From a virus (lineage: Duplodnaviria > Caudoviricetes): a DNA stretch of 60,088 bases. The notes below the pieces were generated by a model. The model saw only the letters and a program-made list of their open reading frames with translations, was not told the DNA's origin and did not search any database. Where the stretch lies: positions 1 through 60,088 of IMG/VR virus record IMGVR_UViG_3300005758_000016. One strand, written 5' to 3'. A program made the position numbers and the translations under genes. Below, one piece after another: positions 49,365 through 59,386 of this stretch (position 1 is its first letter; each line of letters opens with the position of its first letter).

Positions 49365-49826
49365 ATGATTTACCAAAACAGTTATATGAATACCAATCCT
49401 TTTGCTAGTGGAACTAAAAATGCTGCAATCTTTGACACAAATGCTCCATACTCAAATCCTTATCAAGGCACTGCTCCTCGCTGGCTTTTTGTGTGTAGTG
49501 CTGGCCTCCTGCGAAGCCCAACCGGTGCCGCTTTAGCGGTTCAGCGCGGCATTAATGCTCGTAGTTGTGGTTCGAACTTTAACTACGCGTTAATCCCTTG
49601 CAGTGCCAACCTGGTTAACTGGGCTGACAAGATCGTATTTGTTAATCGTGAGAACCTGTGGCAGCTAGAGGACAACTTCCTGGGCCATAAAGACTTGCTG
49701 GAGCAAATTGAGCGCAAGCAAATTGTGCTGGACATTCCAGACAACTACGAGTACATGGACCCTCAACTGGTGCAACTCTACGAAACCGAGCTGTTCCAGG
49801 TATACGGTCCAGTTACCACCAAATAA
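49365..49826 (+). CDS. Low-molecular-weight phosphotyrosine phosphatase-like protein
   Basis: FVCSAGLLRS (CX5R) and LDIPD. Confidence 0.8.
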   Translation: MIYQNSYMNTNPFASGTKNAAIFDTNAPYSNPYQGTAPRWLFVCSAGLLRSPTGAALAVQRGINARSCGSNFNYALIPCSANLVNWADKIVFVNRENLWQLEDNFLGHKDLLEQIERKQIVLDIPDNYEYMDPQLVQLYETELFQVYGPVTTK

Positions 49827-49902
49827 CCGTCTGTAGCTCAGAGGATAGAGCAGGAATCTTCTAAGTTCTTGGTCGGGCGTTCGAATCGCTCCAGACGGGC
49901 CA
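49827..49902 (+). tRNA. tRNA-Arg(UCU)
   Basis: Cloverleaf, loop CTTCTAA, CCA. Confidence 0.92.
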
Positions 49903-49965
49903 AATTTTACACTTGCGTTATTTGCCTGAATCAGTTTATAATATAGACTGATTTGGAGAAATAAT

Positions 49966-50295
49966 ATGAGCACATACACACCAGACACCTGGGTAGTACT
50001 AGAATTCGACGCTCCAGAACTGGACACACCAACACGCAAAGTTTTTGCTGGCTGGTACGGTGGATATGCCGGCTCGAATTCGTGGAAACTGAATAGTGGC
50101 ATTACCAACGTTCGCCAGGTAGACGGCTGGTGGGAGTTTGATGGGTACAGTGGCAGTGTGTACCGTTGCCACCCCGACAACTACCACATGAGTAGCCTAA
50201 TGCAAGGCGTGCTGTCGCGCTGGCTAAAAGACGCCGAGACTCGTGGTGATATAACAATCCGAATTTTGAGTCTTGACGAGATCGCCGAAAGTTGA
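49966..50295 (+). CDS. Conserved phage hypothetical protein
   Basis: PD.WV..W.GGY..SW.LNSGI..G.SGS.Y.C; RBS and promoter. Confidence 0.7.
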   Translation: MSTYTPDTWVVLEFDAPELDTPTRKVFAGWYGGYAGSNSWKLNSGITNVRQVDGWWEFDGYSGSVYRCHPDNYHMSSLMQGVLSRWLKDAETRGDITIRILSLDEIAES

Positions 50296-50322
50296 TATAA
50301 TATAGGCTGATTTGGAGAAAAC

Positions 50323-50520
50323 ATGGCAGGCTACACAAAACAGTTTTTAATTGACGCTTTTATGTCACGGTACGTTGCCTGCTCGCTGATTAGCATCGAA
50401 AAGCTGGAAGCATTGGAGCAAATGGCTAGTGACTTCTACGATCAAGTTGGCCGCGACAAGTTTCGCACTTATGCATCGCTAGATGCTGATGCCATTCGAC
50501 TCTACAAACAATCACAATAA
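50323..50520 (+). CDS. Hypothetical protein
   Basis: GGAG RBS; promoter TTGACG..TATAAT. Confidence 0.6.
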   Translation: MAGYTKQFLIDAFMSRYVACSLISIEKLEALEQMASDFYDQVGRDKFRTYASLDADAIRLYKQSQ

Positions 50521-50531
50521 GTCCCGCGACA

Positions 50532-50670
50532 CTTGTTGCCACAGTCCCTAGTGGTCAGCAGTGCACCAGCGCGCTGTATGTGTCCGGCACATACAGGTAA
50601 AACATACGAGTGATGGTGGACTACGTATGCGGACATCTAGACCTGAGGGCTGTCGCCCAACAGTAGCAAG
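50532..50670 (+). ncRNA. Candidate rod-like structured RNA
   Basis: Nested pairings CTTGTTGC/GTAGCAAG, ACAGTCC/GGGCTGT, GGTC/GACC; apical hairpin TGTATGTG/CACATACA. Confidence 0.45.
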
Positions 50671-50698
50671 ACTATATGATGACGCTTTAGGGAGCGTC

Positions 50699-50785
50699 CC
50701 CATATATTAGCACTATGACTAATAAGAAGGAAACCAACACAGTATTGTGTGGCTGGGCCTCACCTGCATAGTGCTAATATATGGG
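50699..50785 (+). ncRNA. Stem-closed inter-tRNA cassette
   Basis: Perfect 19-bp CCCATATATTAGCACTATG/CATAGTGCTAATATATGGG. Confidence 0.6.
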
Positions 50786-50967
50786 CCGGTAGCTTTAAGT
50801 GGTAAAAGCACTAATCCGGAATACCACATCGTACAGACAATACTGTGACTAGTTTAACCTCTACCGCAATTGGGGTCTCGGCATTGACGTCTGGGCTGAA
50901 TTCGAATATATGCTTACGCGATTGGTATAATTTATGGTTGCAGGTTCGAATCCTGCCTGGCCCACCA
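50783..50967 (+). ncRNA. tRNA-like RNA with ~110-nt insertion replacing the anticodon arm
   Basis: Acceptor GGGCCGG/CTGGCCC-A-CCA, D arm GCTT/AAGC, T arm GCAGG-TTCGAAT-CCTGC; 185 nt long. Confidence 0.8.
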
Positions 50968-51079
50968 TATATTAGCATAATTGACGGGTATGGCGGTAGA
51001 GAAGCTGTATTCGGTTATTTTGACGAATAGCGAAAGGTATAGCGTCAACTATACTGATATTGATTGTGCTAATATATGG
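50965..51079 (+). ncRNA. Stem-closed inter-tRNA cassette
   Basis: ~20-bp CCATATATTAGCATAATTGA/TTGATTGTGCTAATATATGG. Confidence 0.6.
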
Positions 51080-51159
51080 TTGCAACCAGGAATAAAGCCT
51101 GTCTTAGACAGTTACTCAAGGCTCTACCCCATCCGTTAAATGTGGTTAGGAGAGTAACA

Positions 51160-51288
51160 CCATATTTAAACACTCTCACCGTAGGTTCAAGTGACAGTCT
51201 GCTTGACTAGCAGGGCACACGGAACGGTACAGCTTAGTCAGCGTTACGGAGTATGAACTGGTAACACCAGTAGAGTGTTTAAATATGG
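51160..51288 (+). ncRNA. Stem-closed cassette
   Basis: Perfect 17-bp CCATATTTAAACACTCT/AGAGTGTTTAAATATGG. Confidence 0.6.
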
Positions 51289-51372
51289 TCTGAACTTGAC
51301 GGTGGGCGCGACCGCCGAATCCAGTAGCAATAGGTCAGTAACTACGGGCATGTTGCGACCCGCAGACCATAA

Positions 51373-51519
51373 CCCACAAGTAAGTAACCTCGATATACTA
51401 CACTGCCTAGACCTGTCGCTGCTTCACTGCCCTGAGGGAGTACGCTGAGTGCAAGGCCACTGAGTACAAGCCTGTAGAACCGGCAGATAACTACAGGATG
51501 GAGGTTACTTTCTTGTGGG
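51373..51519 (+). ncRNA. Stem-closed structured RNA
   Basis: CCCACAAG-T-AAGTAACCTC/GAGGTTACTT-T-CTTGTGGG. Confidence 0.55.
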
Positions 51520-51609
51520 CACTTCACTGATAAGGAAGACTGGTCGCCTGTATTCAAGCGGCTAGTGCCCACAACACTTTTACCCAACAACCAACGGTTG
51601 CCTGGGCTG

Positions 51610-51644
51610 GGCCAACACCTAACCGTGTTGGCCTTTTGTTTTTT
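51610..51644 (+). terminator. Intrinsic terminator
   Basis: GGCCAACAC/GTGTTGGCC followed by TTTTGTTTTTT. Confidence 0.8.
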
Positions 51645-51684
51645 GGGCTTGATCCTAAACCGCAAATGTTATATAATAGTGGCT

Positions 51685-52689
51685 ATGAATATGTTTAATC
51701 AATCCGTTAATCGCATCGGCTTTGCGTGCAAAATCAACGAGTCACACGACAAGGCCTGGCCGGGTCTTAATACCGGCACGACCACTATTACCTGGCTTAA
51801 CAACCAGCCTAAGCAAAAAGCTGAAGAACGGCTGTGGAGTATCATGCGTAAAAATACTGCTGCGGTGTTGGAACAAGTGCGTTGGCTTAGTAAACAGCCT
51901 CCACACCTACGTATGATGCGTATTAGCAGCGATTTGCTGCCAGCATACACCCACGACGACTGGGCCTACTTTTACTGGCAAAATGATGTGCTGGGTGAAC
52001 TAGAGTCCAGATTTGGCAAGATTGGTGCACTAGCTCGTGAACACGATGTGCGACTCTCATTCCACCCCGGCCAGTTCTGTGTGCTTGCTAGTGAAAATCC
52101 ACAGATTGTGGAAAACTCAATTATGGAGTTTGAGTATCACTGCGACCTGATTCGTTACATGGGTTACGGTCGGCAGTTTCAGGACTTTAAGTGCAACGTG
52201 CACATTGGCGGCAAGCGTGGCCCTGACGGTATCAAAGCCGCTATGCGTAAGCTCAGTCCCGAAGCACGTAACACTCTTACCATCGAAAACGCCGAATTTA
52301 CGTGGGGTCTGGACGCTAGTCTGGAACTAGTCGATACTTGTGCACTTGTGCTAGATATTCACCACCACTGGATTCACAGTGGAGAATATATCACACCGGA
52401 CGACCAACGCTTTAAGCGGGTATGCGATAGCTGGCGTGGTGTACGTCCGGTAATTCACTACAGCGTAAGCCGTGAAGACTGTTTAGTTGACCACGATCCT
52501 ACGGTGAAACCAGACTTGAAACAACTCAAGTCGCTAGGCTTTACCTCCGCCAAGCTGCGTGCTCACAGTGAATACTACTGGAATACCGCTTGTAATGAGT
52601 GGGCACTCAGCTTTGTTCCACATGCGGATATTATGTGTGAGAGCAAGCAAAAGAATTTGGCTAGTTTCAAGTTGGCCGAACAGCTGTAA
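51685..52689 (+). CDS. uvsE: UV damage endonuclease
   Basis: RIGFAC, RISSDLLP, RLSFHPGQF.VL.S, IEN, LDIHHH, HYS, RAHS, DIM.ESK.KN. Confidence 0.9.
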   Translation: MNMFNQSVNRIGFACKINESHDKAWPGLNTGTTTITWLNNQPKQKAEERLWSIMRKNTAAVLEQVRWLSKQPPHLRMMRISSDLLPAYTHDDWAYFYWQNDVLGELESRFGKIGALAREHDVRLSFHPGQFCVLASENPQIVENSIMEFEYHCDLIRYMGYGRQFQDFKCNVHIGGKRGPDGIKAAMRKLSPEARNTLTIENAEFTWGLDASLELVDTCALVLDIHHHWIHSGEYITPDDQRFKRVCDSWRGVRPVIHYSVSREDCLVDHDPTVKPDLKQLKSLGFTSAKLRAHSEYYWNTACNEWALSFVPHADIMCESKQKNLASFKLAEQL

Positions 52690-52753
52690 AAATTTAGCGT
52701 TGATGCCCCAGTGCTTGTCGTGTATAATAATACTTTATTGATTAGGAAAGACC

Positions 52754-52894
52754 ATGAGAGTTTTCACAAAAGTTAATGACAAGCTGGCTTGTTGGGATGT
52801 ACCGGGTTGTGACTACGAAACTGCTATTGGTCTAGTGCGCGATGAACTTGGTGTTGGTCATAAACCTGTTATCCTAGCACTTGTAAAATACTGA
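52754..52894 (+). CDS. 46-aa hypothetical protein
   Basis: AGGAAAG RBS; promoter TTGATG..TATAAT. Confidence 0.5.
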   Translation: MRVFTKVNDKLACWDVPGCDYETAIGLVRDELGVGHKPVILALVKY

Positions 52895-52998
52895 TGTTGA
52901 CGCACACTGCTTAACATAGTATAATAATGTTTCTGATCTTGCTTCCACCGACAGATCCTTATATCGGGGAGATTTCGCACTACTCTAAAAAGTGCTAT

Positions 52999-53077
52999 CC
53001 GAGTGTGGGAAAGTCTGGTTTAATCCGTCACTTTTGGGAAGTGAAGATCGAAGGTTCGAATCCTTCCACTCGGACCA
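52999..53077 (+). tRNA. tRNA-Pro(UGG)
   Basis: Cloverleaf, loop TTTGGGA, CCA. Confidence 0.9.
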
Positions 53078-53822: not shown

Positions 53823-53883
53823 AAAGTATACTTGTTTTTCGAATACTCATATGCTATAATATAGTAAAGTGAGGATTCGAAAA

Positions 53884-54513
53884 ATGATAGTTTTTGCAAA
53901 ACAAATATGTATAAAGTTAGGTATAGAACCTTCCATACAACTAAAGAAGCCTATTAGAGGTTTACCTGGGTTTACTTCTGTACAATTAATAGAAGCATTA
54001 ATATCTACAGACTCTATTAAGGAAGCAGCTGAGTTTCTAGACTATAGCGAAGGGCCTGTAAAAACATCAATTAGGTCACTTTTACAACCTCACTTTCCAG
54101 ATAGGAAATCCAAGTTTGGTACAGGATTTGTTGCTAGATCTTGGAAGTATACACTATTATCAGAAATTGGTTATAAACAATGTACTTGCTGTAATAAAGT
54201 CTTACCAGTAGAAGATTTTAAAGCAAGAGCTAAAAATACTGATAACCTAGGCGAAGCGTGTAGAAACTGTATTAAAGCTAAAAAATCTTTGGAGAGGCAT
54301 TATATTCAAGAAAGGACACCAGAGTGGTCTGATCTTGAGCTTATCTCCAAATTCTACAGTAATTGTCCCAAAGGTTATCATGTAGACCATATAATACCAT
54401 TACGTGGTGTTTTGATTAGTGGACTCCACGTTATAGAGAATTTACAGTATTTACCAGCAATGGAAAATATTGCTAAGAATAATGCTTTCAATATTGAAAT
54501 ATTTAATACCTAG
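53884..54513 (+). CDS. HNH endonuclease
   Basis: CxxC..CxxC; HVDHIIPL..GLHV..NLQYL..N. Confidence 0.85.
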   Translation: MIVFAKQICIKLGIEPSIQLKKPIRGLPGFTSVQLIEALISTDSIKEAAEFLDYSEGPVKTSIRSLLQPHFPDRKSKFGTGFVARSWKYTLLSEIGYKQCTCCNKVLPVEDFKARAKNTDNLGEACRNCIKAKKSLERHYIQERTPEWSDLELISKFYSNCPKGYHVDHIIPLRGVLISGLHVIENLQYLPAMENIAKNNAFNIEIFNT

Positions 54514-54842: not shown

Positions 54843-55064
54843 ATGCCCTGTTATAAATGCAGCAACGGTAAGTACCGTTACGGTAATCGTGGTCGTTGTC
54901 AGTTTGACACACTCCAAGCCTGCCGAGCAGCAGAAGCTGCCATCCACGCACGTAAACCCAAAAAAGACATGACAGACAGCAACAGCACTACTAAAGGTGA
55001 CTGTGGTAGCTGTGGTGGTTGCCAACATTGCGACTGCCGTGATGACTGTAAGAACAAAAGCTGA
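54843..55064 (+). CDS. Small Cys-rich basic protein
   Basis: MP..KC..GKY..G..G motif; metallothionein-like Cys tail. Confidence 0.55.
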   Translation: MPCYKCSNGKYRYGNRGRCQFDTLQACRAAEAAIHARKPKKDMTDSNSTTKGDCGSCGGCQHCDCRDDCKNKS

Positions 55065-55134
55065 CGTAGCTCAAAGGCAGAGCAGGGTCTTGATAAGGCC
55101 CAGGTTGAGATCTCGGAATTCTCCGTCAGTACCA
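55060..55134 (+). tRNA. tRNA-Ile(GAU), atypical T loop
   Basis: Loop TTGATAA; T loop CTCGGAA. Confidence 0.8.
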
Positions 55135-55675: not shown

Positions 55676-55746
55676 CGCGGTGAGTCAGGGTAGAGGCAAG
55701 TCTCATAAGCTCCGCCTAGTTGGTTCGAGTCCAACCACCGCAACCA
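55676..55746 (+). tRNA. tRNA-fMet(CAU)-like, degenerate
   Basis: C1:A72 mismatch, loop CTCATAA, good T arm; reduced D arm and weak anticodon stem. Confidence 0.65.
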
Positions 55747-55747
55747 C

Positions 55748-55822
55748 GGTTTTGTAGCACAGTGGTAGTGCAGCGTCTTCATACGGCGTTGGTCGTTAGT
55801 TCGAATCTAGCCAAAACCACCA
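55748..55822 (+). tRNA. tRNA-Met/Ile2(CAU)
   Basis: Cloverleaf, loop TTCATAC. Confidence 0.85.
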
Positions 55823-55952: not shown

Positions 55953-56136
55953 ATACTTAAATTAAACATTCTGACCATAGCGACAGAAGCCAGTTACTTC
56001 ATAACTTAACGTACTATGATGTAACGACTTTACCGCCGAATTGGTCGCGGCAGTGGTTTAGGCGTACAACCACTCTAATCCAAAGACACCAGAACTGTTT
56101 TCGAACATTCTTGGTCAGTGTGTTTAATTTAGGTAT
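55953..56136 (+). ncRNA. Y RNA-like (Yrl-like) RNA 1
   Basis: ~25-bp terminal stem; inner GAAGCCAGTTACTTC...AACTGTTTTCGA; promoter TTGCTC-17 nt-TATAAT at 55922-55950; upstream of Ro60. Confidence 0.65.
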
Positions 56137-56210
56137 AGTGACGAAAAGGGTAGCTCCCCTGCCACTGCTGATCCAGTGGCTAGTCCAATTTTCTCGATCA
56201 GGAGGTTCCA

Positions 56211-56915
56211 ATGAATATTGGAATTTATGCTCTATATTGGTGGGAGCAAGACATAGTGTATGTCGGAAAAAGCAAAGATTTAAATCTTCGTAAGTACGAA
56301 CATTTAAGACTAATGCAAACTGGAAAGCATACAAAAAAGGTACAAAGTGCTTTTGACTTGTACGGGTTACCAGATTTCATCACAGTACAGCTTTGTGATA
56401 TTGCACAATTAGATGAATTAGAAGTATTTTGGATACAAGAACTAGATGCTTTGGGTTTATCTGGATTAAATAAATGTCCAGGAGGGCAAGATGTTGGTAG
56501 AGATACAACGCACTCAGCCTCCAAGTTTTCTCACCACCAAATACTACAGGTAGTAGACTTATTAATACAAGGTGTACAATACAAAGATATTGTAGATATT
56601 ACCGGAGTATCTAAACCAGTAGTAAGTACCATACTAAATCAATCAAAACACACTTGGATACCAGCAGAGCTAAAAACTGCACTAGATATAGAAAAGTCTA
56701 GAAGAATGTTGTTACCTGCACTGGATAGTTCTACTAAAAACTACTTTATAAAGAGTCCTAATGGTCGTATCTATAAAGTAGATAATATATCCGAATTTGC
56801 CAGAAATCATAACCTTTTGGGCACAAAACTAAACGAAGTTTTGAGAGAAAAACGTAACCAACATTGTGGCTGGACACGGCCTACTGAAAAGGATTTGCTA
56901 AATGTCGTCAATTAA
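56211..56915 (+). CDS. GIY-YIG endonuclease
   Basis: GIY..YVGKS..R..H..E..N; C-terminal DNA-binding-like region. Confidence 0.8.
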   Translation: MNIGIYALYWWEQDIVYVGKSKDLNLRKYEHLRLMQTGKHTKKVQSAFDLYGLPDFITVQLCDIAQLDELEVFWIQELDALGLSGLNKCPGGQDVGRDTTHSASKFSHHQILQVVDLLIQGVQYKDIVDITGVSKPVVSTILNQSKHTWIPAELKTALDIEKSRRMLLPALDSSTKNYFIKSPNGRIYKVDNISEFARNHNLLGTKLNEVLREKRNQHCGWTRPTEKDLLNVVN

Positions 56916-58212
56916 TCGTAAAAATAAATTTGCTGCCGCTAATAGCGTGGGAACACAAGTACCAAGTATTAGTGCAGAAAATCAATTGCGTAGGGTGACG
57001 TTAGCATCAATGTTATACGAAAACCAGTTCTACCTAGACGGTAAGTCCCACGCAGAATTGGTGCGAGATCTTGTAGCCCGAGTTAGCCCAGAAAAGGTTG
57101 CCGACTTGGCTGAAGTGGCGCGAAGCAAATTTAAGCTGCGTCATATTCCTCTGCTGCTTGCCCGTGAACTGGCTCGCAGTGGTCGCCTACAAGCACAAAC
57201 GCTGACTAATATCATTCAGCGTCCGGACGAAATGTCCGAGTTCCTGTCAATCTACTGGCAGGAAGGCAAAACTGCTGTGTCTAACCAAATCAAAAAAGGT
57301 TTGGCGGCTTGTTTCCACAAGTTTAACGAGTACCAGCTTGCCAAGTGGAACAAGAACCGTGCCGCGATTAAGCTACGCGACGTGATGTTCTTGACCCACC
57401 CTAAACCGCAGAGTGCTCAACAAGCTGAACTTTTCAAGCGAATTGCTAGTGATACGCTTGAAACCCCAGATACCTGGGAGGTGCAACTGAGCGCAGGCGC
57501 AGACAAGTGTGAAACATTCACACGACTTATCCAAGAAAACAAACTTGGTGCTCTAGCTTTCTTGCGTAACTTGCGTAACATGACACAGAGTGGCGTAGCG
57601 GAGTCCCTTATCCGTAGTTACGGCTCCAACGTAGATGTGTCACGAGTACTGCCGTTTCGCTTTATTGCGGCGGCACGCATTGTTCCTCAATACGAGGATA
57701 TGTTGGAACAAATGATGTTCCGAGCACTTGCCACAGTACCTAAACTGCCTGGCAAGACTGTGTTAGTTATCGACGTGAGTGGCTCCATGTTTGGTACTAA
57801 CATCAGTGCAAAAAGTGACCTAGACCGCTTTGACGCGGCCGCAGCACTGGCAATTCTTTGCCGTGAAATCTGCGAGACTGTAGAAATCTACTCGTTTAGC
57901 TACGATGCCGTACGAGTCGCACCTCGTCGTGGATTTGCGCTGGTAGAAGCAATTAGTGCTTCGCAGCCTCACGGAGGCACACAGCTAGGCACAGCAATGC
58001 GTACAATTGACTCACAAACTGCTTACGATCGTGTAATCGTATTTACCGACGAGCAAAGCTATGACCGCCCACAATCGCCGCGCGGCAAGGGTTATCTGGT
58101 GAACGTGGCCAGCTACCAACACGGCGTGAATCATAGTGCTTGGCATGAGATCAATGGCTTTAGTGAAGCCATCATTGACTACATTCAAGCGTTTGAGGAG
58201 TCAAACCAGTAA
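56902..58212 (+). CDS. Ro60/Rsr TROVE-vWA RNA-binding protein
   Basis: E..FY, RPDE, KF.EYQLAK, TWE..LS, LRNLRN, LPFRF, DVSGSM (MIDAS), TDEQ. Confidence 0.92.
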   Translation: MSSINRKNKFAAANSVGTQVPSISAENQLRRVTLASMLYENQFYLDGKSHAELVRDLVARVSPEKVADLAEVARSKFKLRHIPLLLARELARSGRLQAQTLTNIIQRPDEMSEFLSIYWQEGKTAVSNQIKKGLAACFHKFNEYQLAKWNKNRAAIKLRDVMFLTHPKPQSAQQAELFKRIASDTLETPDTWEVQLSAGADKCETFTRLIQENKLGALAFLRNLRNMTQSGVAESLIRSYGSNVDVSRVLPFRFIAAARIVPQYEDMLEQMMFRALATVPKLPGKTVLVIDVSGSMFGTNISAKSDLDRFDAAAALAILCREICETVEIYSFSYDAVRVAPRRGFALVEAISASQPHGGTQLGTAMRTIDSQTAYDRVIVFTDEQSYDRPQSPRGKGYLVNVASYQHGVNHSAWHEINGFSEAIIDYIQAFEESNQ

Positions 58213-58657: not shown

Positions 58658-58714
58658 AAATTTAACTTGATTTTTGTTTCCTTATATAGTATAATATATT
58701 TTTGGGAGACAGAA

Positions 58715-59386
58715 ATGACTGAAATTTTATCAAAAGTCATAGAAGCTCTTGGATTTGCCCCTAATGATACTATAAAAAAGAGGCACGGAGATTCAAGAGA
58801 GCTAACTAATAAAGAGTTTGTAGAAGCAATACTAGAGACTGATTCTGTACCAGAATTGGCAAATAGATTAAATATTGGTGAGCAAACAGCTAATAGAATT
58901 ATTGCAAGAGTATTTATTCCGCTATTCGGTAAACGTACTGGTGGAGGAGATACTTGGAAGTTAGCATTGTTAAATAATGCTGAATTAAAAAAGTGTTCCT
59001 GTTGTAGCTCTATATTAGAACATACTTGCTTTAGTAAAGACTTACATAACTTTGATGGACTATCTGCAACGTGTAAAACTTGCAAATCAGATTTAAATGC
59101 TGAGTACTATAATAGGCACAAAGATACTTACCATAAAAAGTATATAGACGAGCACAGAGAAGAGTATAATGCTAGAACGGCATTACGTAGAGCTGCTAAA
59201 TTAAGAGCCACACCTAATTGGGCCAATTTAGAAAATATAAAGCAAATATATGTAAATTGTCCAAAAGGACACCATGTAGATCATATTTATCCTTTAACCA
59301 GTGATTGGGTGTGCGGTCTACACGTAGAAGATAATTTACAATACCTTACAGCAGAAGAGAATTTGCGTAAGGGAAATAGAAGATAA
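58715..59386 (+). CDS. HNH endonuclease (paralog of 53884-54513)
   Basis: ATP.W..Y.NCPKG.HVDHI.PL..GLHV..NLQYL. Confidence 0.85.
   Translation: MTEILSKVIEALGFAPNDTIKKRHGDSRELTNKEFVEAILETDSVPELANRLNIGEQTANRIIARVFIPLFGKRTGGGDTWKLALLNNAELKKCSCCSSILEHTCFSKDLHNFDGLSATCKTCKSDLNAEYYNRHKDTYHKKYIDEHREEYNARTALRRAAKLRATPNWANLENIKQIYVNCPKGHHVDHIYPLTSDWVCGLHVEDNLQYLTAEENLRKGNRR

What the first reader, a model, noticed from the sequence alone, without database searches (positions are those of the whole stretch)
50783..50967. tRNA body whose anticodon arm is replaced by a ~110-nt domain
Seen: canonical acceptor, D and T arms and CCA, but the anticodon position holds a long insert closed by ATACCA-C-ATCG/CGAT-TGGTAT. 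It lacks G3:U70, so it is not tmRNA-like, and the insert is too short for a group I intron. Inference: a novel tRNA-like RNA, such as a decoy for anticodon nucleases, a non-permuted counterpart of YrlA-type Ro ligands, or a tRNA with an unusual intron needing a ligase.
Basis: partly seen in the sequence, partly recalled or inferred. Interest (0 to 1): 0.8.

Follow-up and report, generated by a model that had tools for sequence, protein, structure and literature searches.

The report
Phage tRNA-shaped RNA with self-pairing arm
A family of T5-like freshwater phages carries, inside its tRNA gene cluster, a conserved RNA that has a normal tRNA top half but, where the anticodon should be, a folded 110-base domain with two self-complementary sites that probably let copies of the RNA stick to each other; it fits no described RNA family.

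Summary
Window 50783-50967 (+) matches the Rfam tRNA model (35.8 bits, cut-off 29) with a 114-nt insertion at the anticodon loop. It has a 7-bp acceptor stem, D and T arms, A73 and an encoded CCA.

It is neither chance nor decay. I found 27 distinct homologues in viral and metagenome contigs. Compensatory changes support the acceptor, D stem, insert-closing helix P1 and inner helix P2, and P4 and P5.

The insert is a three-way junction. P4 carries a conserved YGCAA loop and P5 is a hairpin. Two hexamers stay palindromic while their sequences change: UCCGGA/GCCGGC/GUCGAC, and UUCGAA/UUGCAA. This is the signature used to infer intermolecular kissing contacts in OLE and GOLLD RNAs (PMC12286853).

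Splicing to a working tRNA is unlikely. The anticodon stem is only 3-4 A-U pairs, excision would give different anticodons in different members, and no splicing genes or spliced joints were seen.

A Ro60-ligand role is weakened. The element occurs in two 94-95% complete genomes without Ro60. Relatives carry a separate YrlA-like RNA directly upstream of Ro60.

Best reading: a new, non-decoding, self-associating tRNA-like RNA of unknown cellular role.

The parts
50783..50967 (+). Whole tRNA-like RNA, 185 nt
   Evidence: Rfam tRNA 35.8 bits with a 114-nt insertion. Own covariance model R1 scores it at 135 bits. 27 distinct homologues.
50783..50789 (+). Acceptor stem, 5' strand (pairs with 50957-50963)
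   Evidence: 7 pairs, 100% of cells paired, 3 pairs changed on both sides.
50792..50809 (+). D arm (stem GCTT/AAGC; loop contains GG)
   Evidence: 4 pairs, 100% paired, 2 pairs changed on both sides.
50813..50815 (+). Remnant of the anticodon stem, 5' strand (pairs with 50930-50932); only 3-4 A-U pairs across the family
   Evidence: Helix 3: 70.6% and 76.1% of cells paired, with no compensatory change.
50815..50820 (+). Pal1: palindromic hexamer TCCGGA in the 5' side of the internal loop between the anticodon-stem remnant and P1
   Evidence: Outer pair U..A 15 / G..C 11; second pair C..G 24 / U..A 2; 97.5% of cells complementary. One misaligned row (L113) accounts for the exceptions.
50821..50831 (+). 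P1, 5' strand, with bulged C 50827 (pairs with 50919-50928); closes the insert
   Evidence: 9 modelled pairs; 6 or 7 changed on both sides; 91-94% paired.
50834..50838 (+). P2, 5' strand CAGAC (pairs with GTCTG 50889-50893)
   Evidence: 5 of 6 modelled pairs changed on both sides.
50859..50875 (+). P4 hairpin: CTCTA / TGGGG with loop CCGCAAT (50864-50870). GCAA is conserved in the family.
   Evidence: A script found a 3-7 bp stem flanking a GCAA-containing loop in 27 of 27 sequences, with 14 different stem sequences.
50894..50914 (+). P5 hairpin: stem GGC/GCT closing a 15-nt loop
   Evidence: Stem pair C-G 15 / G-C 12; neighbouring pair invariant C-G in 27 of 27.
50901..50906 (+). Pal2: palindromic hexamer TTCGAA in the P5 loop
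   Evidence: Centre dinucleotide CG 23 / GC 4 (UUCGAA to UUGCAA); 100% of cells complementary.
50919..50928 (+). P1, 3' strand
   Evidence: See the P1 5' strand entry.
50935..50939 (+). Variable loop TGGTT
   Evidence: Alignment to the Rfam tRNA model.
50940..50956 (+). T arm GCAGG-TTCGAAT-CCTGC
   Evidence: 5 pairs, 100% paired; 2 pairs changed on both sides in the wider set.
50957..50967 (+). Acceptor 3' strand, discriminator A (50964) and encoded CCA (50965-50967)
   Evidence: ACCA ends 25 of the 27 distinct sequences; the other two end CUA and CCG.
50771..50784 (+). Leader motif GTGCTAATATATGG. It overlaps G1-G2. Its reverse complement follows the CCA at 50965-50978.
   Evidence: 20 matches at up to 3 mismatches against 6.75 expected. 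The 4 matches with 0 or 1 mismatch lie between 50700 and 51079. Leader and trailer pair at 6-15 of 16 positions across homologues.
50273..50301 (+). Promoter-like site (TTGACG-17-TATAAT with TG) upstream of the 65-aa ORF and the non-coding cluster
   Evidence: Consensus scan, 11 of 12 matches. Context only.
51609..51634 (+). Terminator-like hairpin plus T run that would end the unit
   Evidence: Consensus scan. Context only.
56902..58212 (+). Ro60/Rsr orthologue (TROVE + vWA), 5.9 kb downstream on the same strand
   Evidence: Pfam TROVE 2.4e-12, vWA_Ro60 6.5e-6; phrog_850 1.3e-39.

Best explanation
This is a gene for a stable, non-decoding tRNA-like RNA of a clade of distant T5-like phages. 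It sits as an autonomous cassette in the phage tRNA array.

Shown:
- The RNA keeps a complete tRNA top half: 7-bp acceptor, D and T arms with the G18G19 and T-loop residues, A73 and an encoded CCA.
- The anticodon arm is replaced. A 3-4 bp A-U stem leads into an internal loop holding a palindromic hexamer (Pal1), then helix P1.
- P1 opens into a three-way junction. One arm (P2 to P4) ends in a conserved YGCAA loop. The other is a short hairpin (P5) that displays a second palindromic hexamer (Pal2) in its loop.

Inferred:
- It is co-transcribed with neighbouring genes.
- It is cut out by the tRNA-processing enzymes (RNase P at G1, 3' trimming to CCA), so it accumulates like a tRNA.
- It cannot read codons.
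- Pal1 and Pal2 each pair with the same site on another copy, giving homodimers or longer assemblies that display several tRNA elbows and CCA ends.

Speculative:
- Such an assembly acts as a tRNA mimic that binds or sequesters a tRNA-recognising factor of the host or phage. The alternative is an RNA-only scaffold, like the far larger phage RNAs GOLLD and ROOL.
For: 1. Real and conserved. There are 27 distinct sequences. All 13 metagenome hits to a pattern that left both palindromes unspecified are full-length members at 108-190 bits.

2. Both halves are under RNA-level selection. The acceptor has 3 compensatory pairs, the D stem 2, P1 6-7 of 9, P2 5 of 6. Paired cells are 92.7-94.6%, reached by 0 of 500 shuffles; sliding the partner by one column drops pairing to 45-48%. 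P4 has 14 different stems under a conserved GCAA-containing loop. A P5 stem pair is C-G in 15 and G-C in 12.

3. The palindromes are kept as palindromes. Pal1 is UCCGGA, GCCGGC or GUCGAC. Pal2 is UUCGAA or UUGCAA. No row in the 26 well-aligned sequences has a change on one side only. Pairing between the two adjacent centre nucleotides is sterically impossible within one chain. The same argument was used for the intermolecular kissing loops of OLE and GOLLD (passages of PMC12286853 read). Self-duplex energies are -4 to -12 kcal/mol.

4. It is not a decoder. The anticodon-stem remnant is only 70-76% paired and never compensated. There is no 7-nt loop at the anticodon position.

5. It is an autonomous cassette. 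At least four different upstream and downstream contexts occur among homologues. A 94-kb DNA contig of a close relative lacks 50679-50964 while matching 50965-51289 without a difference.

6. It is found in RNA libraries with the insert. Contigs cover 50846-50970 and 50771-50839. This is weak evidence because DNA carry-over is not excluded.
Against: - No experiment shows the RNA, its ends or any dimer.
- The palindrome switches are few events. I count about three in the well-aligned family. One 5' haplotype (GGAUCGG...GCCGGC) is recombined onto different inserts, so 11 rows may reflect one change.
- The divergent member L113 (GUGCAC, GACGUC) is a singleton. Its alignment is uncertain, and its minimum-energy fold pairs part of the second palindrome differently.
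- Pal1 lies in an internal loop, not a hairpin loop, which is a less usual kissing site.
- Single-sequence folding is no better than shuffles.
- The element is dispensable in at least one close relative.
- The biological role is not constrained by any result here.
Confidence: 0.55

Rival explanations
1. Ro60 (Rsr) ligand. It would be a Y-RNA analogue in which the tRNA-like module has free ends and the Ro-binding helix lies in the extended anticodon arm, tethering the phage Ro60 to a partner as YrlA does in bacteria.
For: - The window encodes a Ro60 orthologue 5.9 kb downstream on the same strand.
- 7 of 15 Ro60 loci hold a full-length element 4-6 kb upstream. An eighth (L113) has the divergent member. 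A ninth contig (L110/L124) has the element elsewhere on the record.
- Bacterial YrlA RNAs are tRNA mimics. M. smegmatis YrlA is cut by RNase P and receives CCA (PMC4201824, passages read).
- The window itself lacks the YrlA-like RNA that relatives carry.
Against: - The element is present but TROVE/Ro60 is absent in two genomes that are 94% and 95% complete.
- A Ro60-bearing relative that is 89% complete has no element.
- 7 relatives have a separate YrlA-like RNA ending 0-30 nt before the Ro60 start. Its Rfam YrlA score is 35 bits, below the cut-off of 69, but the topology is the permuted YrlA one.
- There is no Rfam YrlA match on the element at E<=10.
- The GNCGAAN0-1G motif is not present. 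The nearest stretch reads UUCGAAUA and changes to UUGCAAUA in 4 members.
- All co-occurrence comes from one phage lineage, so it is not independent evidence.
Confidence: 0.12
2. An interrupted tRNA gene. The 110-nt insert would be an intron removed by self-splicing or by host enzymes to give a decoding tRNA.
For: - The insert sits where bacterial tRNA introns sit.
- It is closed by a helix, P1.
- The tRNA body is intact and carries CCA.
Against: - There is no group I, group II or small-ribozyme match in Rfam at E<=10. At about 110 nt it is far shorter than known group I introns (recalled: about 200 nt at least).
- After removing P1 and everything inside it, the stem has 3-4 A-U pairs. The loop would read CCGGAAA, CCGGCAA or UCGACAA, that is C33 instead of U33 and anticodons GGA, GGC or GAC on nearly the same body (read).
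- The loop residues evolve as a palindrome. An anticodon would not.
- No RtcB, PF09414 ligase or EndA is found in 4 near-complete element-bearing genomes.
- No joint skipping only the insert appears in 3 RNA-library runs. These are contigs only, so the evidence is weak.
Confidence: 0.07
3. One module of a larger composite non-coding RNA spanning about 50521-51608. The tRNA-like part would be embedded, as tRNAs sometimes are in GOLLD.
For: - A promoter-like site at 50273-50301 and a terminator-like site at 51609-51634 bracket a 1.1-kb region without convincing ORFs.
- Neighbouring units share the same flanking motifs.
- An RNA-library contig joins the element's end to 51279.
Against: - The element occurs with at least four different upstream and downstream neighbours.
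- It can be absent while its neighbours stay.
- There is no GOLLD or ROOL match.
- The flanks look like ordinary tRNA processing sites: U at -1 and an A/U-rich trailer.
Confidence: 0.08
4. A decayed pseudo-tRNA carrying a selfish or neutral DNA insertion, with no function.
For: - Presence/absence polymorphism among close relatives.
- The array is rich in homing-endonuclease genes.
Against: - Compensatory changes occur in six helices of both the body and the insert.
- Loop motifs are conserved across 27 variants.
Confidence: 0.02

Closest known systems
YrlA-type bacterial and phage Y RNAs (Rfam RF02553; Chen et al. 2014, PMC4201824)
   Same: Both are non-coding RNAs whose main module mimics the tRNA acceptor/T/D core. 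Both are found in phages that also encode Ro60. In both, the stem at the anticodon-arm position leads to a second functional module. M. smegmatis YrlA is even cut by RNase P and given CCA.
   Different: - YrlA is circularly permuted: its ends lie in the distal stem and its acceptor is closed by a loop. Here the ends are the tRNA's own and the distal module is closed.
- There is no sequence or model match and no GNCGAAN0-1G motif.
- The element occurs without Ro60.
- These phages have their own YrlA-like RNA next to Ro60.
GOLLD, ROOL and OLE RNAs (Kretsch et al. 2025, PMC12286853)
   Same: GOLLD and ROOL are phage or prophage RNAs of unknown function found near tRNA islands. Palindromic loop sequences covary at adjacent nucleotides (GC/CG, GGCC/GAUC), which was taken as evidence of symmetric intermolecular kissing contacts. 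GNRA-type loops and A-minor contacts are common in them.
   Different: - They are 580-800 nt or longer and have no tRNA body of their own. This RNA is 164-188 nt and is built on a tRNA.
- No Rfam match.
- Oligomerisation here is inferred only.
Phage T4 species 1 RNA (rnaC) in the T4 tRNA cluster
   Same: It is a small stable RNA of unknown function encoded inside a phage tRNA cluster. Its 3' part has a T arm and an acceptor-like stem (tRNA-Sec model 17.5 bits, E 0.92; annotation and sequence).
   Different: - No similarity to this family: R1 gives no match on rnaC.
- The tRNA-like part of rnaC is only the 3' domain, with extra sequence at the 5' end rather than in the anticodon arm.
tmRNA
   Same: A tRNA-like acceptor/T module with CCA plus a large inserted domain. 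It is encoded in the same phage arrays in relatives.
   Different: - tmRNA has G3.U70, a reduced D arm, pseudoknots and a tag reading frame.
- Here 3-70 is G-C or A-U and the D arm is complete.
- No conserved reading frame was seen (by eye). ARAGORN does not call it.
tRNA genes with group I introns in the anticodon loop
   Same: The position of the insertion, and a closing helix.
   Different: No intron core and no Rfam match. Excision would not give a consistent anticodon loop.

Membership tests
Canonical decoding tRNA | 7-bp acceptor stem, discriminator, CCA end | tested here: met
   100% of cells paired, 3 compensatory pairs. ACCA ends 25 of 27 sequences.
Canonical decoding tRNA | D and T arms with conserved tertiary residues | tested here: met
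   Alignment to Rfam tRNA at 35.8 bits. D and T stems 100% paired.
Canonical decoding tRNA | 5-bp anticodon stem and 7-nt loop with U33 and an anticodon | tested here: not met
   114 nt stand in place of the loop. The stem remnant is 70-76% paired at 3-4 A-U pairs.
tRNA with group I intron | Group I catalytic core | tested here: not met
   No intron family among Rfam matches at E<=10 in 49500-53000.
tRNA with group I intron | Excision restores one consistent anticodon stem-loop | tested here: not met
   Reading of the 27 sequences: the loops would be CCGGAAA, CCGGCAA or UCGACAA, with C33.
tRNA with group I intron | Spliced product exists | tested here: inconclusive
   No insert-only joint in 3 RNA-library runs. 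These are assembled contigs of relatives, not reads.
tmRNA | G3.U70 alanine identity pair | tested here: not met
   Pair 3-70 is G-C in 11 and A-U in 7 of 18 rows.
tmRNA | Tag reading frame with resume codon and stop | tested here: not met
   ARAGORN finds no tmRNA here. By eye, insert lengths differ by non-multiples of 3 and no frame is shared.
YrlA / Y RNA | Match to the Rfam YrlA model at its gathering score | tested here: not met
   No YrlA match on the element at E<=10.
YrlA / Y RNA | Permuted topology: RNA ends in the distal stem, acceptor closed by a loop | tested here: not met
   The ends are the acceptor ends. The YrlA-like RNA of relatives does show the permuted topology.
YrlA / Y RNA | GNCGAAN0-1G motif near the 5' end (PMC4201824) | tested here: not met
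   The nearest stretch is UUCGAAUA in the P5 loop. It becomes UUGCAAUA in 4 of 27 (listing).
YrlA / Y RNA | Encoded within 4 kb of Ro60, same strand, and co-occurring with it | tested here: inconclusive
   Same strand, but 5.9 kb away in the window. Of four element-bearing genomes that are at least 94% complete, two have Ro60 and two do not. One Ro60-bearing genome at 89% has no element.
YrlA / Y RNA | Bound by Ro60 | not testable with these tools
   Needs EMSA or co-immunoprecipitation.
Homo-oligomeric ornate phage RNAs (GOLLD/ROOL type) | Match to the Rfam GOLLD or ROOL models | tested here: not met
   No such match.
Homo-oligomeric ornate phage RNAs (GOLLD/ROOL type) | Palindromic sites that covary at adjacent nucleotides | tested here: met
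   Pal2 centre is CG in 23 and GC in 4. Pal1 has two pairs with changes on both sides.
Homo-oligomeric ornate phage RNAs (GOLLD/ROOL type) | Forms RNA-only multimers | not testable with these tools
   Needs native gel, SEC-MALS or cryo-EM.

The most novel reading that the evidence does not exclude
The RNA is a small, tRNA-based member of the emerging class of phage RNAs with quaternary structure. Through two independent symmetric contacts (Pal1-Pal1 and Pal2-Pal2), copies assemble into closed dimers, rings or chains that display an array of tRNA elbows and CCA ends. The phage uses this multivalent tRNA mimic to trap or relocate a host factor that recognises tRNA, for example a tRNA-targeting defence enzyme, a processing enzyme or a translation factor.
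Probability: 0.3. Interest if true: 0.85.

Novelty: new variant of a known kind. Interest (0 to 1): 0.66.

Why it matters
Phage tRNA arrays are usually read as spare parts for translation or as replacements for tRNAs cut by host defences. This family shows that such arrays also carry a conserved RNA that keeps everything a tRNA needs to be processed and recognised but cannot decode. Instead it carries a folded domain with the evolutionary signature of self-association.

It is short (164-188 nt), easy to transcribe, and has clear mutational handles in two hexamers. That makes it a tractable test of two ideas. The first is whether RNA-only oligomers, so far seen in 600-800-nt RNAs, also exist in small RNAs. 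The second is what tRNA mimicry does for a phage.

It also separates two tRNA-like RNAs in Ro60-encoding phages: a permuted YrlA-like RNA next to Ro60, and this non-permuted one. That sharpens the question of what phage Ro60 binds.

Tried and rejected
- Megablast of 49500-53000 against cultured phages found only a tRNA-Arg match in 2 Arthrobacter phages.
- Sensitive blastn of the element found only 42-nt T-arm/acceptor matches to ordinary tRNAs, for example in phiKZ-like phages. 0 of 51 records cover 80% of the query.
- A pattern scan of GTDB genomes gave 5 stretches. None matches model R1, so they are chance hits.
- Single-sequence minimum-energy folds are no better than shuffles and do not recover the comparative structure.
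- The idea that the conserved UUCGAAU is a second T loop, or pairs with the molecule's own T loop, was rejected. The members with UUGCAA keep UUCGAG in their T loops.
- A possible pseudoknot between UUGACCCUG and CAUGGYC in one subgroup was seen by eye and not pursued.
- A tag-peptide frame was looked for by eye and not found.
- The 65-aa ORF upstream was tested as a possible partner. It accompanies the element in all 20 element-bearing loci searched. It is also present in 22 of the tested loci in which R1 finds no element, so it is not specific.
- Two scans for relatives of the divergent member L113 found none.
- Neighbouring units (51078-51164, 51287-51400 and the spacers) were folded singly without a clear result.
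- Stretches of the window not covered by contigs are not evidence of anything.
Full report
**1. What is there**

Window 50783-50967 (+) reads as a tRNA whose anticodon loop is replaced by about 114 nt.
- The Rfam tRNA model aligns both halves end to end at 35.8 bits (gathering score 29; E 4.5e-5 for the 3.5 kb searched), with 114 inserted nucleotides.
- ARAGORN, which finds 15 ordinary tRNAs between 38.6 and 60.1 kb on the same strand, does not report it.
- Read directly from the sequence: acceptor GGGCCGG/CUGGCCC with G3-C70, D arm 50792-50809, T arm 50940-50956, discriminator A, encoded CCA.
- The minimum-energy fold of the single sequence is no better than shuffles (z -0.28). The case therefore rests on comparison.

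**2. The genome**

The window is a 60-kb viral contig estimated 57% complete.
- Its portal protein is about 40% identical to those of T5-like phages. Its head, tail and terminase genes have the usual PHROG matches.
- Complete relatives are about 100-104 kb with direct terminal repeats.
- Relatives carry 16-26 tRNAs and a tmRNA. The tmRNA scores best with the betaproteobacterial model (105 bits, cut-off 84). This is a hint to the host, not a demonstration.
- The array also holds three homing-endonuclease-like ORFs and a Ro60/Rsr orthologue at 56902-58212.

**3. Homologues**

- Searching around relatives of the neighbouring UvdE gene gave two copies.
- A conserved 17-nt motif of the insert found 14 viral loci with the full element among 24 hits; the other 10 are coding chance matches.
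- A broader pattern added more.
- A pattern anchored only on the D arm and T arm, which left the whole insert free, found 13 metagenome contigs. All 13 are full-length members at 108-190 bits with my model R1.
- In all there are 27 distinct sequences of 164-188 nt. One of them (L113:5023-5210) is highly divergent at 34 bits.
- The element is absent from the cultured-phage collection and from GTDB species genomes.

**4. Structure**

On 13 sequences aligned by MAFFT, a structure of acceptor, D stem, anticodon-stem remnant, P1, P2 and T stem gives these figures:
- 92.7% of cells paired, against 82.6% in shuffles (0 of 500 reach it).
- 16 of 35 pairs changed on both sides.
- Pairing falls to 45-47% when partners are slid by one column.

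On 18 distinct rows aligned to the model the figures are 94.6% and 19 of 35. That alignment leans towards the model.

| Helix | Compensatory pairs |
|---|---|
| Acceptor | 3 of 7 |
| D stem | 2 of 4 |
| P1 | 6-7 of 9 |
| P2 | 5 of 6 |
| T stem | 0-2 of 5 |
| Anticodon-stem remnant | 0 of 4 (70-76% paired; 3-4 A-U pairs) |

Inside P2 the sequences fall into three subgroups.
- All end in a hairpin, P4, whose loop contains GCAA (CGCAA, CCGCAA, CUGCAA and similar).
- A script found a 3-7 bp stem around that loop in 27 of 27 sequences, using 14 different stem sequences.

Between the 3' strand of P2 and the 3' strand of P1 lies a conserved stretch, G(C/G)CUGANUU(CG/GC)AAUAYAYG(G/C)Y.
- Its ends form a 3-4 bp stem, P5. 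One pair is C-G in 15 and G-C in 12 sequences, and the next is invariant.
- The insert is therefore a three-way junction of P1, P2 to P4, and P5.

**5. The two palindromes**

Immediately after the anticodon-stem remnant, on the 5' side of an asymmetric internal loop, every member has a self-complementary hexamer (Pal1). The 3' side of that loop is 1-2 A residues.
- UCCGGA in 15 sequences.
- GCCGGC in 9.
- GUCGAC in 2.
- GUGCAC at the corresponding place in L113.

The P5 loop holds a second self-complementary hexamer (Pal2).
- UUCGAA in 22 sequences.
- UUGCAA in 4.
- GACGUC nearby in L113.

Counted as if the hexamers were helices, 97.5% and 100% of cells are complementary.
- Changes on both sides occur at the outer and second pairs of Pal1 and at the centre of Pal2.
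- No one-sided change occurs in the 26 well-aligned rows.
- The only exceptions are the misaligned L113 row.

The centre of a palindrome consists of two adjacent nucleotides, which cannot pair within one chain. Kretsch et al. used this same observation (GC/CG and GGCC/GAUC/AGCU switches) as evolutionary evidence for the symmetric intermolecular kissing loops seen by cryo-EM in OLE and GOLLD (PMC12286853; passages read).

An intramolecular alternative for Pal2, pairing with the molecule's own T loop, is excluded. The UUGCAA members keep UUCGAG T loops.

Nearest-neighbour self-duplex energies are -4 to -12 kcal/mol.

Caveats:
- The number of independent events is small, about three in the close family, because one 5' haplotype carrying GCCGGC is recombined onto all three insert subgroups.
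- L113 is a singleton. Its fold is uncertain and no relatives of it were found.

**6. Not a spliced tRNA**

- If P1 and everything inside it were removed, the remaining loop would read CCGGAAA, CCGGCAA or UCGACAA. That means C33 instead of U33, and anticodons GGA, GGC or GAC on an almost identical body.
- The stem would have 3-4 A-U pairs.
- Rfam finds no intron or ribozyme.
- Four element-bearing genomes that are 94-100% complete contain no RtcB, no PF09414 RNA ligase and no splicing endonuclease. The control genomes do give matches for these families.
- In contigs of three RNA libraries, pieces cover 50846-50970 (insert joined to the 3' tRNA half, 8 differences) and 50771-50839. No joint removes the insert alone. 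These are assembled contigs of relatives and could include DNA, so this is weak evidence.

**7. Ro60**

The attraction of the Ro60 idea is real. YrlA RNAs mimic tRNA, and in M. smegmatis YrlA is cut by RNase P and given CCA (PMC4201824). That product has the topology of this RNA opened at the other end. Three results weaken it.
- **Occurrence without Ro60.** Of four element-bearing genomes at least 94% complete, two have Ro60 (both with terminal repeats) and two (94% and 95%) have neither a Ro60 homologue nor a TROVE domain. In one of these, the 10 kb downstream of the element, where Ro60 lies in relatives, is present in the locus. A Ro60-bearing relative at 89% completeness has no element.
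- **A separate Y RNA.** Seven relatives carry a conserved RNA of about 105 nt directly upstream of the Ro60 start. It has a 5'/3' stem, a T arm, a closed acceptor-like hairpin and a D arm, which is the permuted YrlA topology. Rfam YrlA scores it at 35.1 bits in L109:9867-9972, below the cut-off of 69. In the window this RNA is missing. A GIY-YIG endonuclease gene (56211-56915) lies there, and only 19 nt of the upstream promoter-like sequence remain at 56123-56141.
- **No motif.** The element has no YrlA model match and no conserved GNCGAAN0-1G motif.

A role with Ro60 is not excluded, since bacteria have several Y RNAs. It is no longer the leading reading.

**8. Cassette behaviour**

The element is flanked by GTGCTAATATATGG, which overlaps G1-G2, and by its reverse complement after CCA.
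- The same motifs flank neighbouring units between 50700 and 51288.
- Across homologues the leader and trailer are conserved A/U-rich motifs, pairing at 6-15 of 16 positions, with U at -1. The sequences further out differ in at least four ways on each side.
- A 94-kb DNA contig of a close relative passes from 50678 through 20 other letters straight to 50965, and then matches 50965-51289 without a difference. The element and its upstream spacer are missing there.
- Another relative has 50966-51065 directly before 50771-50839.

The element is therefore an autonomous, exchangeable and dispensable module, not part of a fixed larger RNA. A promoter-like site (50273-50301) and a terminator-like site (51609-51634) suggest it is transcribed with a conserved 65-aa ORF and other small non-coding units. 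That ORF also occurs in relatives without the element.

**9. How it most likely works**

- **Shown:** conserved tRNA core, conserved three-way-junction domain, two sites that stay self-complementary, no anticodon loop, cassette polymorphism.
- **Inferred from general knowledge of tRNA maturation:** RNase P cleavage at G1 (7-bp acceptor, U at -1), 3' trimming to the encoded CCA, T- and D-loop modification, and hence tRNA-like stability.
- **Inferred from covariation:** Pal1 and Pal2 each pair with the same site on another copy. Two independent symmetric sites allow closed dimers or longer assemblies.
- **Speculative:** the assembly is a multivalent tRNA mimic that binds a tRNA-recognising protein, or an RNA-only scaffold.

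My confidence:
- About 0.8 that it is a functional, non-decoding tRNA-like RNA.
- About 0.55 for the statement that includes self-association.
- Under 0.3 for any particular cellular role.

**10. Comparison and novelty**

It works like a tRNA mimic (YrlA, the tmRNA tRNA-like domain, T4 species 1 RNA), and perhaps like the self-assembling phage RNAs GOLLD and ROOL. It fails the defining tests of each family (see the membership table).
- T4 rnaC, fetched for comparison, has a tRNA-like 3' domain but no similarity to this family.
- Literature searches for a description of such an RNA found none. I saw search listings and abstracts, plus passages of PMC4201824, PMC12286853 and PMC7609411.
- Supplementary tables were closed and subscription journals are not covered, so prior description cannot be excluded.

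I rate it a new variant of a known kind (tRNA-like non-coding RNA). The self-pairing signature is the unexpected part.

Noticed in passing
L109:9867-9972 (also L110:5993-6151, L112:9838-10000, L116:98-252, L117:9846-9996, L108:9848-10000, L106:9844-9985); window 56123-56141: A conserved YrlA-like (permuted tRNA-like) RNA lies directly upstream of the Ro60 gene in 7 relatives. Rfam YrlA scores it at 35.1 bits, below the cut-off of 69. In the window it is missing: a GIY-YIG endonuclease gene (56211-56915) takes its place and only a 19-nt upstream remnant is left. In L107 it seems to be cleanly deleted.
   Followed up: partly
window 50700-51288: There is a run of small non-coding units, each bracketed by GTGCTAATATATGG-like and CCATATATTAGCAC-like motifs. 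Close relatives differ in which units are present and in their order (contig joints). This looks like cassette shuffling by recombination at the shared flanks. The other units (for example 51078-51164 and 51287-51400) are unexplained.
   Followed up: partly
window 55060-55131 and 55676-55746: Rfam finds an extra tRNA at 55060-55131 (45.4 bits) that ARAGORN missed. A weak tRNA-like stretch (12-18 bits) lies just before tRNA-Met. Together with tRNA-Met it produces a spurious 25-bit YrlA match at 55691-55801.
   Followed up: no
L106:7510-7609, L109:7592-7683, L118:8064-8165: Relatives carry 92-102-nt tRNAs with a long variable arm that ARAGORN reads as Ile(tat) or as a four-base anticodon (tacc). 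These are unusual tRNAs worth a separate look.
   Followed up: no
L093:5739-5838: A 100-nt tRNA-like sequence lies 10 nt downstream of the element in one relative. It has an acceptor, D and T arms, an enlarged middle and no CCA. It is a second irregular tRNA-like gene.
   Followed up: no
L109:13965-14331, L113:13084-13548: The phage-encoded tmRNA of relatives scores best with the betaproteobacterial tmRNA model (105 and 91 bits, cut-off 84). This is a hint that the hosts are Betaproteobacteria.
   Followed up: no
window 51565-51690: The listed UvdE ORF start (GTG 51565) is probably too early. Homologues align only from residue 18-50 or later. A terminator-like hairpin (51609-51634) and a promoter-like site (51649-51677) lie inside the first 40 codons.
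   Followed up: no
window 53869-54513, 56211-56915, 58667-59386: Three homing-endonuclease-like ORFs (two HNH/endonuclease VII-like, one GIY-YIG) are interspersed among the tRNA genes, as in the T4 and T5 arrays.
   Followed up: no
L147:2909-3047 (-), phage T4 rnaC: The 3' 93 nt of T4 species 1 RNA align weakly to a tRNA model (tRNA-Sec 17.5 bits, E 0.92), with a clear T arm and an acceptor-like stem.
   Followed up: partly
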